In this document: positions 51,401 to 64,000 of the stretch, piece after piece
How the letters are laid out: each line of letters begins with the position of its first letter
How positions within the stretch are numbered: position 1 is the stretch's first letter
Assembly: GCF_902652985.1 (NCBI RefSeq)
Contig: NC_047022.1
Span: 12,772,001 to 12,836,000 of the forward strand
Source: Pecten maximus
Taxonomy: Eukaryota
Direction: 5' to 3'
Length of the DNA stretch: 64,000 bases
Position numbers: made by a program

Positions 51401-54400
51401 TTAAGTCCAGTTACATATTTTATTTATCAGTTGTCATATTTCTATTTGACAGACCTATGGAAAAAAGTCATGGTACATATTTTATTAATCAGTTGACATA
51501 TTTCTATTTGACAGACCTATGAAAAAAGTCCAGCTACACATTTTATTAATCAGTTGACATATTTCTACTGGACAGACCTATGAAATAAAGTCCAGTTATA
51601 TATTTTATTAATCAGTTGACATATTTCTATTGGACAGACCTATGAAATTAAGTCCAGTTACATATTTTATTTATCAGTTGTCATATTTCTATTTGACAGA
51701 CCTATGAAAAAAGTCATGGTACATATTTTATTAATCAGTTGACATATTTCTATTGGACAGACCTATGAAATTAAGTCCAGCTACATATTTTATTAATCAG
51801 TTGACATATTTATATTTGACAGACCTATGAAAAAAAGTCCAGCTACATATTTTATTAATCAGTTGACATATTCCTCTGAAATTAACTCTAGGTTCATATT
51901 TCATTCGGAACGTAATCGTACTTATTAACAATAATCGAGCTGGCGACATGGTACATTGTATTGAGTATTTTTACGCGGTTACCTTCCTCTACTGGTCGGG
52001 TAGTATCTTGCATAAATATCTAACATTTTTTATTAGACACTAATATAAAAAAGGCTTTAATAACAACACATTAAACAGTCGTTGAAGCTCACAAAACGTT
52101 CGATGGCAATTATTTTCTGTTTAGAGGAACCTGTTTTACGTTTAAGGTTCCTGTTTTGAAGAACGAACATGACGGCATATTACATCACTTTGATACTGGG
52201 TATGTATACAGCATCTCATATATGTCATAAAAGATAATGACATTAACAGTTAAAATAATGTTCTCAATGGGAAATATTTTATACATCAATAACATCCGGT
52301 GATGTCCGCTCAACGCATTGCCCAAAAGATACACGAGAAAGTATTATTTAAAAAAAAGATTCAACGATTAAAAAGTAGTTTTCAGCTGCCCACTCATCAT
52401 ACTAATATCTGAAATTAGAATGCGATAGTATGACGTCATTAAGACTTAATATAATTATATATATGTAAATTTATTTTACAACAATTGCGAAACAAGTTAT
52501 ATTAACTTATATTAACCACGCTTGTTGGCCGGGATGGAAACGCGCGAGGGGTCTTATATATCTGTATATATAATTATTTATTCATTTACACAGTTATGAC
52601 CCTTTGAGAATAGAGCTCAACACTGAGGGCCATAACTATTTCATTATACCGAACGAAAATGAACAAATGTAAATTTGCATGATACACTAATCAATATTTT
52701 TCAGAGATCAGCCCGGGCTTGTCGCCCTCGTGCTGCAGTTTTGCAGGAAAATGTCTCAGTTATTGAATGTCACGTGGGAATGTTTAGACCAATCATATCA
52801 GTGTAAATGTAGATGAAAATGAGGTATAATAATTTTTTTTTTCAGTCGCAATGTTGGCCATCCACTGCCGCGGTGGTCAGTCGAACAGTACCCCATACTG
52901 TCGTTTTATCACGCAGGTTAGCTGTCAGAGTAAGGGGAGAAATGTCCTTTGTGGAACTGATGGGAATACTTATCAGAATGAGTAAGTCGTTATACGGGTG
53001 TGCATGTTCAGTCAAGATAAACACAGGTTTGAAAATCAAAATAGATGTTTATTTATATTGGGTGATCGCAACAACTAACAGGATCATAGCTGTAGGAAGA
53101 TGAACGTCAAACATCAAAGCAACAGCAGCCGGAGAGAAAATAAGTTCAGACATGAAAGAAAGGCAAATATAACTATTGTTACTTGGGTTGTTTTGTTCTC
53201 AAAATAGAAGAAAATTCCGGAAACACTGTTTTATAGTCTCCTTCTACGAACTCTATGCATTGTGACATAGCAGGCCCCATGTTTTTACTTTAGGCTCTCT
53301 TCTTAATAGACATCTGACATCAATGACAAGATTTTATTCTCATAAACATAAAAAGTGGAGAGAGTTACATACATTAAACATTGTACAGGACATACTTATG
53401 ATATAATGCAAGGATACACCAGAGAAAGCATGCCCTAGCCTGCGGTGGTGGAATGTGAGGGCCATACAATAAATTCTGCCATCATTATCTGTCGTTGTGC
53501 TAACTCAATGCATACTCTTACGGGATGCGTGGTGCGACAATATATCTAATGAATTGCCCTCGTGTGACTGGCATATTCATATTCTTTCCACATTCTTATT
53601 AAATTATCCACTTTCAGACAATAAATAAATCAATCAAATTATCCACAGGGAGAAATATACCCTCTTTTGATTTGGTCAATTTAGATTTTCCACTTCTAAG
53701 CCCTTGCGTCACTGACGAATACTGGACGGACGAATGAGTTGTATCGCCAGTGACCAATGTCTTCATAAAATCACAAACCTGAAAATGATTTGATGTTGTA
53801 GATGTTCGTTGTTGAAAGCTCATTGTCGTAGATCAACAGTCCAGGTGGCTCACAGAGGGGCGTGTCCGACGCCCTCCTCCGTCCTCACCGGAATGGGCGT
53901 GGTCTCCACCTCCGACATAGCTCTCGATGTATTTTGTCTGGATCTCTTCAAACATTCATGTGACCGTGAAGAACGTCAAAGCGTGTGTGGAACGGACGGA
54001 ACGACATATACCAATCTGTGAGTAGGATATATAATAGTGTAAAGGATTTTTGTTTCCAAAGCGTGTATTTTCATTGTACGAGGATAGTTATAAATAATAT
54101 TACAATAATATGAACAGAGAAAATCTCGACCCATTCTATCATTTCCGCAATTATACATCTTTTTATTAAACCCTTTTGTTAATCCATGATATTTGAACAA
54201 CTGGAAAAAAAACCTTTACAATATACAATTATTGTCCTTGTCCGAGGTGAATAAAGCGTACTAAATTTGCAAATAATAACAATCATTGGTTCAGGGTGTA
54301 GGTATTATACTACCAGTGATATATATACACATACATACTGGTCCTTTAGGATTAAAGAGTATGTTATCAATACTAAAAGTAACACAAGAAAACAGATTTG

Positions 54401-57400
54401 TAACAAAACAAGAACTTGTAATCTATTTTTAGAAATGATTTATGTTACGATATTTGAATATTAAGACCAGGCGTTCCAGAAGGGTAGGCATACTCTGCTT
54501 CATAAACAACACTGTACCTGAGATCGAGGCAAATGCAGACAATGTCGTCTTCTCAAATGATACTAACCCTTTTAGAAATTAGTTTGGTTAAGGAAACGAC
54601 ATGTAGCCGCCACTGTAATGTAGAAATATACCCACTTATGAACTAACTTCAACAGAGCAGCAATCACTGCTATGAGCGGCTTTTGATACGTAAAGATATA
54701 TCTATAATGCTGTATTAAGTATAATGTACAAATATCTCGAACAATTGAATGGTTGGCAAATGATTTCTTTGTAAAAATAAAACAAGTAAAGTCTATAATA
54801 CTCCAGACTTGACATAAATGATTGTATAAAAGATACCAGATATTGGCACATTTAAAACAAATTGCGAGTAAGATACCGTGGAGCCAGAAGGAATCAAAGT
54901 GCATTACACAGCCGGTTCATCCTTCAACGACTCGTCAATAATGCTAAGGGTCTTAAAATTTGACACCTACGTGTAGAATGCGGCGGAACTAGAATTTGTC
55001 AAACTATGTGTCAAAAACCATGTCTGTTGATTGGGAGGTGGACTATCCCTATAATCAGACAAACTGAAGAATGTATTAATATCAGATTTCTAAACAACGT
55101 CAAACACATGTGTATTTACCGAGCCAAGCATACATTCAAATGAAATAAAATACCACATGTATGTCGAAACGTTCTTGATTTTTTTTATAACATATATAAA
55201 CTGTTGTGGTCATCATACTGATGGATATTTACGTTGTCTCTCTAAGTTGATTTAATATTATTGATCTAGAAAACAATACATAGATCATACTACATTAATG
55301 TATTACTAGTATCTTGTTGATAAATTGTTTAAATGAGATTTATTGATAAGATCGTTGGAAAATTAGCCATTTAGGAACACTTAGGACTTCTGTTTTTTTT
55401 TCTTTTAAATTAGCTTAATATGTTGCATTCCGGCAATTAGTAATTATATATGGCCGATTGAAAGCAATGACATGCTGCTGTGTACAATACCAAAAGCTAT
55501 TACAATCTTTCAAAAATATGAGCTTTAATTGATGTATTTGCTCTGACAGATATATCAACGAAACAGGAATGAAAAAAAATGTTCATCAAGCTAACAATAC
55601 TTATTTAATGAAAGTTGAATACATGATACCCGGATAAGTTATGGGTAATCTACCTTATATAAACTGGTTTACATTTCTCGACTCACGTTCGTCACGGTTG
55701 GCTGCCAACACGTTCTTCTACTGTGATTTTACTGTGAAACGCCTACGTTGGGTTTTACCGAAGGCAGAGAAAATCTGGTCACGTATGTTAAAGTACATTA
55801 TTAGTAAACTTTGACCACACGCTGTACTACATGTATTTCTGCAATGGCGACCTTAACCAGATACATGTACCATCAAGTTGAGAATATGTACAATCAACAT
55901 TAAAGGAGATGAAAGGTAATAGCGTTAATCATGTTTTTGTCCTCCAGTGTACGTTTTGTACGACATATTTGCATGTTTATGTATCATTTGTACGTTTTGT
56001 ATGACATATTTGCATGTTTATGTACTCATTTGTACGTTTTGTATGACATATTTGCGTGCCTTTGTACTCATTTGTACGTTTTGTTCGACATATGTACATG
56101 TTTATGTACTCATTTGTACGTTTTGTTCGACATATGTACATGTTTATGTACTCATTTGTACGTTTTGTACGACATATTTGCATGTTTATGTATCATTTGT
56201 ACGTTTTGTATGACATATTTGCATGTTTATGTACTCATTTGTACGTTTTGTACGACATATTTGCATGTTTATGCATCATTTGTACGTTTTGTATGACATA
56301 TTTGCATGTTTATGCATCATTTGTACGTTTTGTATGACATATTTGCATGTTTATGCATCATTTGTACGTTTTGTACGGAATATTTGCATGTTAATGTCCT
56401 CATTTGTACGTTTTGTACGACATATTTGCATGTTAATGTACTCATTTGTACGTTTTGTACGACACATTTGCATGTTTATGCATCATTTGTACGTTTTGTA
56501 CGACATATTTGCATGTTTATGTCCTCATTTGTACGTTTTGTACGACATATTTGCATGTTTATGTCCTCATTTGTACGTTTTGTACGACATATTTGCATGT
56601 TTATGTCCTCATTTGTACGTTTTGTACGACATATTTGCATGTTTATGTCCTCATTTGTACGTTTTGTACGACTCGTGCATGTTTATGTCCTCATTTGTAC
56701 GTTTTGTACGACTCTTGCATGTTTATGTCCTCATTTGTACGTTTTGTACGACATATTTGCATGTTTATGTCCTCATTTGTACGTTTTGTACGACATATTT
56801 GCATGTTAATGTACTCATTTGTACGTTTTGTACGACACATTTGCATGTTTATGCATCATTTGTACGTTTTGTATGACATATTTGTATGTTTATGTACTCA
56901 TTTGTACGTTTTGTATGACAAATTTGCATGTTTATGCATCATTTGTACGTTTTGTACGATACATTTGCATGTTTATGCATCATTTGTACGTTTTGTACGA
57001 CATATTTGTATGTTTATGTACTCATTTGTACGTTTTGTATGACATATTTGTATGTTTATGTCCTCATTTGTACGTTTTGTACGACATATTTTCATGTTTA
57101 TGCATCATTTGTACGTTTTGTATGACATATTTGTATGTTTATGTACTCATTTGTACGTTTTGTATGACAAATTTGCATGTTTATGCATCATTTGTACGTT
57201 TTGTACGATACATTTGCATGTTTATGCATCATTTGTACGTTTTGTACGACATATTTGTATGTTTATGTACTCATTTGTACGTTTTGTATGACATATTTGT
57301 ATGTTTATGTCCTCATTTGTACGTTTTGTACGACATATTTTCATGTTTATGCATCATTTGTACGTTTTGTACGGAATATTTGCATGTTAATGTACTCATT

Positions 57401-63400: not shown

Positions 63401-64000
63401 CTAAATACATATAATTATCCAAACCACTGTACAGTCAGTCATTGAATGGTAGGCTTTGTCGATACTATTAATATCAATTACGTCATGATTTGTTTTCCCA
63501 TTATATTTTTACTTTCAGGTGTGAGTTTGATAAAAGTAGATGCATGCACAAGGAACTACGAATTGCCAAATTTGGATCTTGTTGATACACATGCTAATAA
63601 ATACTCTCAGTAATGGTACTTTTCTTACGTTTTTTGTAATGAATCATTTAAAACGAAAACACAATACAAAACTAACTAAATATGAATGAAAAAAATACCT
63701 ATTCACTCCCTTTGGGTAAGATTCTTCAGCTGTCAAATATTAGGCTTGCTGAACTTAAGAATCCCCCTCGGCTTGAGATTCCCGGCCTCATCCCCAAGAC
63801 GCTGCTGTTTTTACCTGACGATATAATATTATACCTAACTTGGGACAGTTGACTTACCTAACAAAATGCTGACAGTGGATTTACCTGACGACATAAACAT
63901 AGGATTATACCTTTCGATATATTGACAATGGATGGTACTTGTCGACATGTAATGGGTTATACCTGACGACATAGACAAAGGATTTTACCTTAAGATATAT

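What the first reader, a model, noticed from the sequence alone, without database searches (positions are those of the whole stretch)
54018..63518. cGAS-like receptor nested on the same strand inside a Kazal gene intron
Seen: Kazal B exon 3 ends mid-domain (TYTN-L, phase 2). The completing exon, homologous to the last exon of paralog A, lies 9.5 kb downstream at 63519, and I saw no nearer substitute. The intron between contains an intact 681-aa Mab-21/cGLR ORF with its own acceptor (57957) and AATAAA (60126) in the same orientation. The matching intron of paralog A (42703-45057) has no such gene. Known: nested genes are mostly antisense, and bivalve cGLRs are an expanded immune family. Inference: an insertion after the Kazal duplication. 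Host transcripts must skip the nested acceptor and polyA site, so expression of the sensor and of the secreted inhibitor may be coupled or mutually exclusive.
Basis: partly seen in the sequence, partly recalled or inferred. Interest (0 to 1): 0.72.

Follow-up and report, generated by a model that had tools for sequence, protein, structure and literature searches.

The report
Scallop cGAS-like gene nested in Kazal gene
In the king scallop an intact cGAS-like immune-sensor gene sits, on the same strand, inside the last intron of a small secreted Kazal protease-inhibitor gene; both gene models are already public, related scallops appear to share the layout, and it is an ordinary host/nested gene pair.

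Summary
The window is Pecten maximus. Kazal B (+ strand) matches the public 149-aa protein 'agrin-like' XP_033747845.1 exon by exon at 100%: 52169-52199, 52846-52981, 53802-54017 and 63519-63585. That public protein already implies the 54017->63519 junction. The 9.5-kb intron holds the 681-codon ORF at 57966-60011. This ORF is 100% identical to 'uncharacterized protein LOC117332888' (XP_033747844.1, 686 aa). The public model adds two codons from a small 5' exon, most likely 55909-55915, which also lies inside the intron.

The protein has a cGAS/Mab-21 fold (AF2 pLDDT 90.5; Foldseek best hits are cGAS and Sp-cGLR1). Its GS and three acidic active-site residues are invariant in 74 of 74 scallop paralogs. 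It also carries a mollusc-specific TPR-like C-terminal half.

The arrangement is not a recent insertion. The Ylistrum balloti ortholog is annotated as one 819-aa model that joins Kazal B exons 1-3 to the cGLR. In Mizuhopecten yessoensis both orthologs lie on a contig of the same length.

Same-strand nesting is a large minority of nested genes, not a rarity. Coupled or mutually exclusive expression remains untested. This is a new example of a known kind and of low interest.

The parts
52169..52199 (+). Kazal B (public 'agrin-like', XP_033747845.1) coding exon 1: start codon and first part of the signal peptide; donor GTATGT at 52200
   Evidence: tblastn of P0121; sequence read
52846..52981 (+). 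Kazal B exon 2: rest of the signal peptide and N-terminal half of Kazal domain 1; acceptor AG 52844-52845, donor GTAAGT at 52982, phase 2
   Evidence: 100% to P0121 residues 11-56
53802..54017 (+). Kazal B exon 3: C-terminal half of Kazal domain 1, linker, N-terminal half of Kazal domain 2; donor GTGAGT at 54018, phase 2
   Evidence: (Kazal_2 2.5e-5, 24.7 bits against cut-off 22.8)
54018..63518 (+). Last intron of Kazal B (9,501 bp), the host intron
55656..55663 (+). TATATAAA, a TATA-like motif about 250 bp upstream of the candidate 5' exon end; candidate core promoter of the nested gene (inference only)
   Evidence: sequence read
55909..55915 (+). Coding end (ATGAAAG) of the candidate first exon of the nested cGLR-like gene, donor GTAATA at 55916, phase 1. 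It would supply the two extra N-terminal residues of the public 686-aa model. The 5' limit of the exon is unknown
   Evidence: Pattern found 2 times in the window (1.47 expected on both strands). This is the only match inside the intron. The other, at 39670, has a poor donor
55916..57957 (+). Intron 1 of the nested gene; almost filled by the 42-bp satellite array 55930-57487 (37.5 copies)
57958..60011 (+). Main coding exon of the nested cGLR-like gene (LOC117332888, XP_033747844.1). The conserved ATG is at 57966, giving 681 codons to the TAA at 60009-60011. It encodes a Mab-21/cGAS-fold NTase plus a TPR-like C-terminal half
60126..60131 (+). AATAAA of the nested gene, 115 nt after its stop codon, with a T/G-rich stretch about 35 nt downstream
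60418..61903 (.). 21-bp satellite array (69 copies) downstream of the nested gene, inside the host intron
62099..62567 (.). 40-bp satellite array (9 copies) inside the host intron
63519..63585 (+). Kazal B exon 4: one base that completes the split Leu codon, the C-terminal half of Kazal domain 2, and the stop TGA at 63583-63585; AATAAA at 63596-63601
45058..45264 (-). Paralog A, exon homologous to B exon 3 (C-half of Kazal 1 plus N-half of Kazal 2); donor GTAAGT, phase 2
   Evidence: (Kazal_1 1.1e-6)
42703..45057 (-). Paralog A last intron (2,355 bp), homologous in position and phase to the host intron of B; no gene detected in it
42618..42702 (-). Paralog A last exon (C-half of Kazal 2, stop included)

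Best explanation
This is a genuine host/nested gene pair in Pecten maximus, and both gene models are already public.

The host encodes a small secreted protein with a signal peptide and two Kazal domains, in four coding exons. Each Kazal domain is split by a phase-2 intron. The second domain therefore forms only if the 9.5-kb last intron is removed and 54017 is joined to 63519.

Inside that intron, on the same strand, lies a separate two-exon transcription unit:
- a short 5' exon ending at 55915;
- a 2-kb intron filled by a 42-bp satellite;
- a single large exon that encodes a cytosolic cGAS-like (Mab-21 fold) nucleotidyltransferase with an intact active site, fused to a TPR-like C-terminal half;
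- its own AATAAA.

The protein belongs to a family of several hundred scallop paralogs.

The pair has been linked since before Pecten, Ylistrum and probably Mizuhopecten diverged, so it is a stable arrangement rather than a fresh insertion.

Most likely mechanism (inferred, not shown): the two genes are transcribed from separate promoters. Host transcripts normally bypass the nested acceptor, which has a weak pyrimidine tract (11 of 20, against 16 of 20 at the host's own last acceptor), and also bypass the nested polyA site. Any host transcript that used the nested acceptor would be out of frame with the sensor ORF, would stop within nine codons, and would lose the C-terminal half of Kazal domain 2. 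Some interference between the two units is therefore plausible, but it need not be regulatory.
For: Identity and exon structure:
- the ORF is 100% identical over 100% of its length to 'uncharacterized protein LOC117332888 [Pecten maximus]'.
- the 149-aa 'agrin-like [Pecten maximus]' matches four separate window exons at 100%. Its C-terminus is the exon at 63519.
- canonical GT/AG sites and matching phases.
- a 5' exon candidate that explains the two extra N-terminal residues.

Sensor protein:
- Pfam Mab-21 and Mab-21_C above cut-off.
- the best PDB sequence hit is 'cGAS-like receptor 1' 8gjy (9.4e-14), followed by cGAS.
- AF2 pLDDT 90.5, pTM 0.90. The 48 Foldseek rows shown (ranks 1-50, two left out by the tool as duplicate chains) are all cGAS or Sp-cGLR1, with TM by target about 0.65-0.75.
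- G60, S61, D72, D74 and D181 are invariant in 74 of 74 aligned paralogs.
- the C-terminal half resembles TPR proteins (TM about 0.5) and its sequence clusters are molluscan.

Conservation of the arrangement:
- Y. balloti XP_060064910.1 (819 aa) carries the orthologs of Kazal B exons 1-3 followed by the cGLR ortholog.
- those exons are about 72-80% identical to the window exons.
- the P. maximus, Y. balloti and M. yessoensis proteins and one unnamed protein form one clade (SH-aLRT 100) among 75 rows.
- the M. yessoensis Kazal ortholog and cGLR ortholog are both reported on a contig of length 2,475,167, with accessions 11 apart.
Against: - No transcript data were available. The junctions, the 5' exon and the polyA use rest on public protein models (computed annotation) and on sequence signals.
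- The 5' exon assignment rests on a 9-base pattern. The chance of a + strand match falling in the 3.9-kb interval is about 0.05 by my arithmetic. A second match exists at 39670.
- Nesting in Y. balloti is inferred from a fused protein model, which shows order and strand but not that the last Kazal exon lies beyond the cGLR.
- For M. yessoensis only co-location on a contig of the same length is shown.
- No ortholog of either gene was seen for Argopecten irradians. This is weak evidence because the searches are word-based.
- The protein does not fit the published cGLR active-site pattern literally: 2 of 75 family members fit it. Its calculated pI is 6.4-6.7, below the >8.5 noted for nucleic-acid-sensing cGLRs in PMC9980059 (passage read).
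Confidence: 0.82

Rival explanations
1. Chimeric gene: transcripts from the Kazal B promoter are spliced from exon 3 into the cGLR exon. The product would be either a Kazal-cGLR fusion protein, as in the Y. balloti public model, or a truncated Kazal isoform that carries the cGLR ORF as an untranslated tail. The 'nested gene' would then be partly an alternative 3' end of the host.
For: - The Y. balloti public model XP_060064910.1 joins Kazal exons 1-3 to the cGLR through a 14-residue linker.
- It is the only one of the 120 listed homologs with a Kazal Pfam domain, so the link is specific to this locus.
- The nested acceptor lies 5.6 kb closer to the exon-3 donor than the host's own last acceptor does.
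Against: - In P. maximus the phase-2 donor at 54017 and the acceptor at 57957 are out of frame with the ORF.
- The only in-frame AG upstream of the ORF (57873-57874) has a poor pyrimidine tract, 9 of 20.
- P. maximus and M. yessoensis both have separate public models, with a conserved last Kazal exon.
- A signal peptide fused to a cytosolic-type nucleotidyltransferase makes little biological sense.
- Automatic annotation often merges neighbouring same-strand genes (my knowledge, not tested here).
- The linker has no counterpart in the P. maximus sequence upstream of the ORF.
Confidence: 0.1
2. Interleaved rather than nested: the first exon of the cGLR gene is the other ATGAAAG|GT site at 39670-39676. 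Its first intron would then span paralog A and Kazal B exons 1-3.
For: The pattern required by the public protein's first two residues occurs at 39670 as well as at 55909, both on the + strand.
Against: - The donor at 39677 (GTCGTT) is poor, while the one at 55916 (GTAATA) is good.
- About 0.7 chance matches are expected on one strand of the window, so one stray match is unsurprising.
- An 18-kb first intron crossing two other genes is far less likely than a 2-kb one.
Confidence: 0.04
3. Assembly artefact: the satellite-flanked segment that carries the cGLR was placed wrongly between Kazal exons 3 and 4.
For: - The cGLR exon is bracketed by a 1.6-kb array and a 1.5-kb array.
- About a third of the window is tandem repeat.
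Against: - There is no N in the window.
- An independent assembly of another genus (Y. balloti) has the same order and strand for Kazal exons 1-3 and the cGLR.
- In M. yessoensis both orthologs are reported on a contig of the same length.
Confidence: 0.03
4. Recent lineage-specific insertion: the cGLR entered the intron in the P. maximus lineage after the A/B duplication.
For: - Paralog A's homologous intron is 2.4 kb and empty.
- The cGLR family is large, so new copies arise often (244 hits).
Against: - The orthologs in Y. balloti and M. yessoensis are 62% identical and form one clade with a plausible species order.
- Those orthologs are linked to the Kazal B ortholog.
- No target-site duplication, terminal repeat, polyA tail or transposon ORF flanks the gene.
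- The gene has an intron, so it is not a plain retrocopy.
Confidence: 0.03

Closest known systems
Host/nested gene pairs of metazoan genomes (a protein-coding gene wholly inside an intron of another)
   Same: - A complete transcription unit, with its own 5' exon, coding exon and polyA signal, lies inside one long intron of a host gene.
- The nested gene has few exons.
- The host intron is much longer than its homolog in the paralog (9.5 kb against 2.4 kb).
- The published consequences (premature polyadenylation of the host, exonization, interference) are the same ones that could apply here (PMC11694760 and PMC3192792, passages read).
   Different: - The nested gene sits in the last intron. The mammalian survey found a preference for 5' introns (PMC11694760, passage read).
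- The pair is same-strand, the somewhat less common orientation.
- The host intron splits a single small disulfide-bonded domain, so failure to splice across the nested gene destroys a domain rather than dropping a module.
cGAS-like receptors (cGLRs) as defined by Li et al. (PMC9980059), including cGLR-TPR fusions and the bivalve radiations
   Same: - Mab-21 NTase core plus helix bundle.
- cGAS-like predicted fold.
- GS and three acidic residues conserved.
- A TPR-like appended module. The paper names tetratricopeptide modules among the appended domains, and says 87% of cGLRs have none.
- Membership of a very large bivalve expansion. The paper reports more than 200 per genome in some bivalves.
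   Different: - The published motif spacing is not met: 99-127 residues between the second and third acidic motifs, against 50-90.
- The residue before GS is G in this ortholog group, not Q or T.
- The pI is near neutral, not above 8.5.
- No product, ligand or STING link is known for any member of this scallop family.
- The paper's text does not mention scallops ('scallop': 0 occurrences). Its supplementary tables could not be read.
Two-domain Kazal-type secreted proteinase inhibitors (named 'agrin-like' or 'follistatin-like' by automatic annotation)
   Same: - A signal peptide followed by two six-cysteine Kazal domains.
- Precomputed Pfam Kazal_1 and Kazal_2 on the public protein.
- Orthologs in M. 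yessoensis (74% identical) and a relative in Ostrea edulis (41%).
   Different: - Inhibitory activity is untested.
- Each domain is split by a phase-2 intron after the conserved Tyr-x-Asn.
- By my recollection of Kazal numbering (not tested), the P1 position would be Ser in domain 1 and Arg in domain 2.

Membership tests
cGAS-like receptor (cGLR) family, criteria of PMC9980059 | Catalytic residues: GS loop, [DE]x[DE] pair and a third acidic residue | tested here: met
   G60, S61, D72, D74 and D181 (numbering of the 686-aa public protein) are invariant in 74 of 74 aligned scallop paralogs.
cGAS-like receptor (cGLR) family, criteria of PMC9980059 | Literal active-site pattern h[QT]GS X8-20 [DE]h[DE]h X50-90 h[DE]h | tested here: not met
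   - The pattern fits 2 of 75 family members and does not fit this protein.
- Here the residue before GS is G, the residue after the second Asp is R, and the spacer to the third acidic motif is 99-127 residues across the family.
- A relaxed pattern (GS, D.D, spacer 50-130) fits 57 of 75.
- For this reason I call it cGLR-like, not a curated cGLR.
cGAS-like receptor (cGLR) family, criteria of PMC9980059 | Sequence homology across both the NTase core and the C-terminal helix bundle | tested here: met
   - Pfam Mab-21 37.8 bits and Mab-21_C 52.6 bits, both with cut-off 24.1.
- The NTase match covers only profile positions 121-196.
- phmmer against PDB aligns residues 179-343 to 8gjy 'cGAS-like receptor 1', E 9.4e-14.
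cGAS-like receptor (cGLR) family, criteria of PMC9980059 | Predicted structural homology to known cGLR/CD-NTase enzymes | tested here: met
   - AF2 model: pLDDT 90.5, pTM 0.90.
- Foldseek against PDB: mouse cGAS 4o6a E 7.1e-11, TM by target 0.71; Sp-cGLR1 8gjy E 7.5e-11.
- 231 matches at E <= 0.001.
cGAS-like receptor (cGLR) family, criteria of PMC9980059 | Ligand-activated synthesis of a nucleotide second messenger | not testable with these tools
   This needs recombinant protein and nucleotide product analysis. The calculated pI of 6.4 for the NTase half does not favour a long nucleic-acid-binding surface.
Kazal-type inhibitor domain | Six-cysteine Kazal pattern recognised by the Pfam models | tested here: met
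   - Exon-level hits: Kazal_2 24.7 bits (cut-off 22.8) on 53794-54018, and Kazal_1 29.0 bits (cut-off 21) on 45057-45296.
- The public full-length protein carries PF07648 and PF00050.
- The last exon supplies the remaining cysteines.
Host/nested gene pair | All exons of the nested gene lie within one intron of the host, whose flanking exons are joined in the mature product | tested here: met
   - At the level of public protein models, host exons 3 and 4 (ending at 54017, starting at 63519) are contiguous in XP_033747845.1.
- The nested coding sequence 55909-55915 plus 57958-60011 lies between them.
Host/nested gene pair | Both units are transcribed as separate mRNAs | not testable with these tools
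   No transcript collection for this species was available.

The most novel reading that the evidence does not exclude
The pairing is maintained by selection as a switch. When the host is transcribed through the intron, the nested acceptor (57957) and polyA site (60126) capture part of the host pre-mRNA. That yields a one-and-a-half-domain Kazal isoform and blocks the sensor's own promoter. When the sensor promoter fires, it in turn truncates host transcripts. Secreted inhibitor and cytosolic sensor would then be expressed in a mutually exclusive, infection-dependent way across Pectinidae. The Y. balloti fused model would be the footprint of such real chimeric transcripts.
Probability: 0.1. 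Interest if true: 0.5.

Novelty: new member of a known kind. Interest (0 to 1): 0.2.

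Why it matters
If the pair is only what it appears to be, it adds one more same-strand nested gene to the many known. Both models are already in the public annotation, so little changes.

Three modest points are of use:
1. The scallop Mab-21/TPR family is large. There were 244 hits, and the catalytic residues are invariant in the 74 members I aligned. 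No member appears to have been studied: my searches found no paper on it.
2. The fused Y. balloti model shows how nested same-strand genes can mislead automatic annotation into domain architectures that are probably not real (Kazal plus cGLR).
3. The host's second Kazal domain depends on splicing across another gene. That makes this locus a compact natural test case for interference between a host gene and a nested gene in an invertebrate immune context.

Tried and rejected
- **Nearer completing exon.** tblastn of the last-exon peptide and of the P. maximus, M. yessoensis and O. edulis proteins gave no other + strand hit between 54018 and 63518.
- **Transposon or retrocopy origin.**
  - No Pfam hit other than Kazal above cut-off in 147 ORFs of 55 aa or more. 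These were 147 of 154 found. The 7 dropped were the cGLR ORF, scanned, and six ORFs overlapping it.
  - Four further ORFs had sub-threshold hits that I take for chance: TPR_COPA_B, HD_4, ACT_5 and DUF1600.
  - No flanking direct or inverted repeats of note.
  - No Rfam family and no tRNA in the window.
- **Similarity between the B intron and the rest of the window, paralog A's intron included.** Of 93 blastn rows, 3 lay outside the intron and none was in A's intron.
- **In-frame fusion in P. maximus.** The annotated acceptor is out of frame. The single in-frame AG (57873-57874) has a weak tract.
- **Far 5' exon at 39670.** It has a poor donor.
- **Literature.** 'Kazal' + 'cGAS' + 'nested' gave 3 unrelated papers. 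Of the 49 papers holding 'scallop' + 'cGAS' + 'STING', the 12 listed included none on this family.
- **Standalone Kazal B ortholog in Y. balloti or A. irradians.** None was found: 3 hits among 14 candidates and 3 among 11. These searches are word-based, so this is weak evidence.
- **Joined model.** Each exon was compared separately, and the joined step was left out.

Full report
**Origin of the window**

The 681-codon ORF is 100% identical over its whole length to 'uncharacterized protein LOC117332888 [Pecten maximus]' (686 aa, XP_033747844.1). The window is therefore king scallop DNA. It contains no N. About a third of it is tandem satellite.

**The host gene**

tblastn of the exon-3 and last-exon peptides showed two Kazal paralogs in the window: B on the + strand and A on the - strand, arranged head to head.

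A search with exon 3 alone returned three proteins among 14 candidates:
- 'agrin-like [Pecten maximus]', 149 aa, XP_033747845.1, 100% identical;
- 'follistatin-like [Mizuhopecten yessoensis]', 148 aa, 80% identical;
- an 819-aa Ylistrum balloti protein.

Compared exon by exon, the P. maximus protein matches four window segments at 100%:
- 52169-52199;
- 52846-52981;
- 53802-54017;
- 63519-63585.

Exon 3 ends two bases into a codon and is followed by GTGAGT. Exon 4 follows a pyrimidine-rich tract and AG. It supplies the third base of that codon, the last three cysteines of Kazal domain 2 and a TGA, with AATAAA 11 nt later. The C-terminus of the public protein is exactly this exon, so the public annotation already implies the 54017->63519 junction. 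Each exon was compared separately, and the joined step was left out.

No other + strand candidate for the completing exon exists between 54018 and 63518.

Paralog A has the same phase-2 intron positions. None of the eight ORFs of 55 aa or more that overlap this intron has a Pfam hit.

**The nested gene**

- The ORF runs from the ATG at 57966 to the TAA at 60009-60011, with AG at 57956-57957.
- AATAAA is at 60126-60131.
- The public 686-aa model begins with two residues that this exon does not encode. They are followed by a residue whose codon must be split in phase 1 at the 57957 acceptor.
- The required pattern (ATG, a Lys codon, G, then GT) occurs twice in the window, against 1.47 expected on both strands.
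  - One match is at 55909-55917. It lies inside the host intron, has a good donor and sits just before the 42-bp array.
  - The other is at 39670 and has a poor donor.
- I therefore place the first exon's end at 55915. The nested gene's own intron, 55916-57957, then consists mostly of the 42-bp satellite.
- A TATATAAA lies at 55656-55663. Treating it as the promoter is inference.

**What the nested protein is**

- Pfam gives Mab-21_C (5.6e-14) and the distal part of the Mab-21 NTase domain (2.7e-9), both above cut-off. It also gives sub-threshold TPR hits at the C-terminus.
- The best solved relative by sequence is 'cGAS-like receptor 1' 8gjy (9.4e-14), followed by cGAS entries. There were 43 distinct sequences at E <= 1.
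- I aligned 74 of the 120 listed homologs (244 were found). I left out partial and short entries and the Y. balloti fusion. G60, S61, D72, D74 and D181 were invariant in 74 of 74.
- An AlphaFold2 model built from that alignment is confident (pLDDT 90.5, pTM 0.90).
- Its best PDB matches are mouse and human cGAS and Sp-cGLR1 of S. pistillata (E about 1e-10, TM by target 0.65-0.75), with 231 matches at E <= 0.001.
- Residues 396-686 are helical. Their structural neighbours are TPR proteins (TM about 0.5), and their sequence-feature neighbours are molluscan clusters without a family.

Li et al. (PMC9980059, passages read) define cGLRs by three criteria: an active-site pattern, homology over both lobes, and predicted structure.
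- The second and third criteria are met.
- The catalytic residues are present.
- The literal pattern is not met. It fits 2 of 75 family members, because the spacer before the third acidic motif is 99-127 residues rather than 50-90. In this ortholog group G also replaces Q/T before GS.
- The calculated pI is 6.4-6.7, not the >8.5 that the paper associates with nucleic-acid sensors.

I therefore call it a cGLR-like Mab-21 enzyme with a TPR-like module. The paper names TPR modules among appended domains and reports radiations of more than 200 cGLRs in some bivalves.

**Age of the arrangement**

The closest relatives are an unnamed protein (65% identical), Y. balloti XP_060064910.1 (62%) and M. 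yessoensis XP_021370426.1 (62%). All other hits are 53% identical or less over their aligned parts, and 51% or less among near-full-length hits.

In a tree of 75 rows these four proteins form one clade (SH-aLRT 100). The order is M. yessoensis, then Y. balloti, then P. maximus with the unnamed protein. The root was at the midpoint, for drawing only.

The Y. balloti model is 819 aa. Its first 125 residues or so are the orthologs of Kazal B exons 1-3, about 72-80% identical to the window exons. A 14-residue linker follows, and then the cGLR. It is the only one of the 120 listed homologs that carries a Kazal Pfam domain. In another genus, from an independent assembly, the Kazal exons therefore lie upstream of the cGLR ortholog on the same strand, close enough for the annotation to merge them.

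In M. yessoensis the Kazal ortholog and the cGLR ortholog are both reported on a contig of length 2,475,167, with accessions 11 apart. The three species belong to different genera of Pectinidae.

This argues against a recent insertion and against misassembly. It does not prove that the last Kazal exon lies beyond the cGLR in those species. No eukaryotic genome collection was available to check that.

No ortholog of either gene was seen for Argopecten irradians. That is weak evidence.

**Is the fusion real?**

In P. maximus the phase-2 donor at 54017 joined to the acceptor at 57957 is out of frame with the ORF and meets a stop within nine codons (read).

The only in-frame AG upstream of the ORF is at 57873-57874. 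It has 9 pyrimidines in the 20 bases before it, against 11 at the annotated nested acceptor and 16 at the host's last acceptor.

The Y. balloti linker has no counterpart upstream of the P. maximus ORF. tblastn did extend weakly past the orthologous donor into the intron, by four residues after a gap. That hints that the model reads through the donor.

I take the fusion for an annotation merge, and I keep real chimeric transcripts as a 10% rival.

**How it probably works**

Shown:
- two complete coding units on one strand, one inside the last intron of the other;
- canonical signals for both;
- conservation of the linkage.

Inferred:
- The units have separate promoters.
- Host transcripts bypass a weak internal acceptor and a canonical polyA signal.
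- Capture at either site would remove the C-terminal half of Kazal domain 2.
- Without splicing, the host frame stops at the TGA that overlaps the donor.

Interference of this kind is documented for mammalian host/nested pairs (PMC11694760 and PMC3192792, passages read). Nothing here shows that it occurs or is regulatory.

**How unusual it is**

- About 63% of human nested genes are on the opposite strand, a figure quoted in PMC3192792 from an earlier study (passage read).
- The 2024 mouse/human survey found only a slight bias and counted over a tenth of genes in such pairs (PMC11694760, passages read).
- Same-strand nesting is therefore common.
- No hallmark of transposition or retroposition flanks the gene. 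There is no RNA family or tRNA in the window.
- I found no paper on this pair or on the scallop family. These were searches of the held library only.

**Verdict**

- The nesting is real.
- The arrangement is ancient, not recent.
- The strand bias was overstated.
- Coupling of expression is untested.

This is a new, unremarked example of a known kind of arrangement, and both gene models are already public. Interest is low, at 0.2.

Noticed in passing
window 42618-46412 (-) and 52169-63585 (+): The two Kazal paralogs are head to head, about 5.8 kb apart. The gap is filled largely by a 28-bp array (48337-51065, 97 copies) and a 62-bp array (51289-51872). The oyster relative (O. edulis 'follistatin-like', 157 aa) is closer to B than to A: 40% against 30% over the middle exon. 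A therefore looks like the divergent copy. Its first exon was not located.
   Followed up: partly
window 1-2288, 17928-21166, 26682-27663, 31878-38812, 48337-51065, 55930-57487, 60418-61903: The window is unusually rich in long, unrelated minisatellite arrays, with periods of 22, 34, 51, 48, 28, 42 and 21 bp and up to 144 copies. Together with the smaller arrays they make up roughly a third of the 64 kb.
   Followed up: no
window 63089-63305; also 21168-21371 and 27909-27967: An interspersed repeat of about 220 bp, 82% identical between copies. Two of the three copies abut satellite arrays. A 99-aa minus-strand ORF (62954-63253) overlaps the copy in the host intron and has no Pfam hit. No tRNA or Rfam match.
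   Followed up: partly
window 55844-55903 (+): If the nested gene's first exon starts near 55.7 kb, it contains a short upstream ORF: an ATG at 55844 and a TAA at 55901-55903, just before the ATG at 55909. It was read and its conservation is unknown.
   Followed up: no
protein family of the nested gene: Scallops carry a large family of Mab-21 + TPR-like proteins of about 680 aa. There were 244 hits at E <= 0.001 across P. maximus, M. yessoensis, Y. balloti and A. irradians. The catalytic residues were invariant in the 74 members I aligned, but the insert in the NTase core is longer than the published cGLR pattern allows. One member (Y. balloti, 991 aa) carries a further Pfam domain, PF24871.
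   Followed up: partly
window 24000-28000: G+C is higher here (0.39) than in the surroundings. There is a 51-bp array (26682-27663) whose frames stay open, and an ORF at 25578-25910 with a sub-threshold HD_4 hit (E 0.0032, 17.6 bits against cut-off 27.2). It may be another gene or chance.
   Followed up: no
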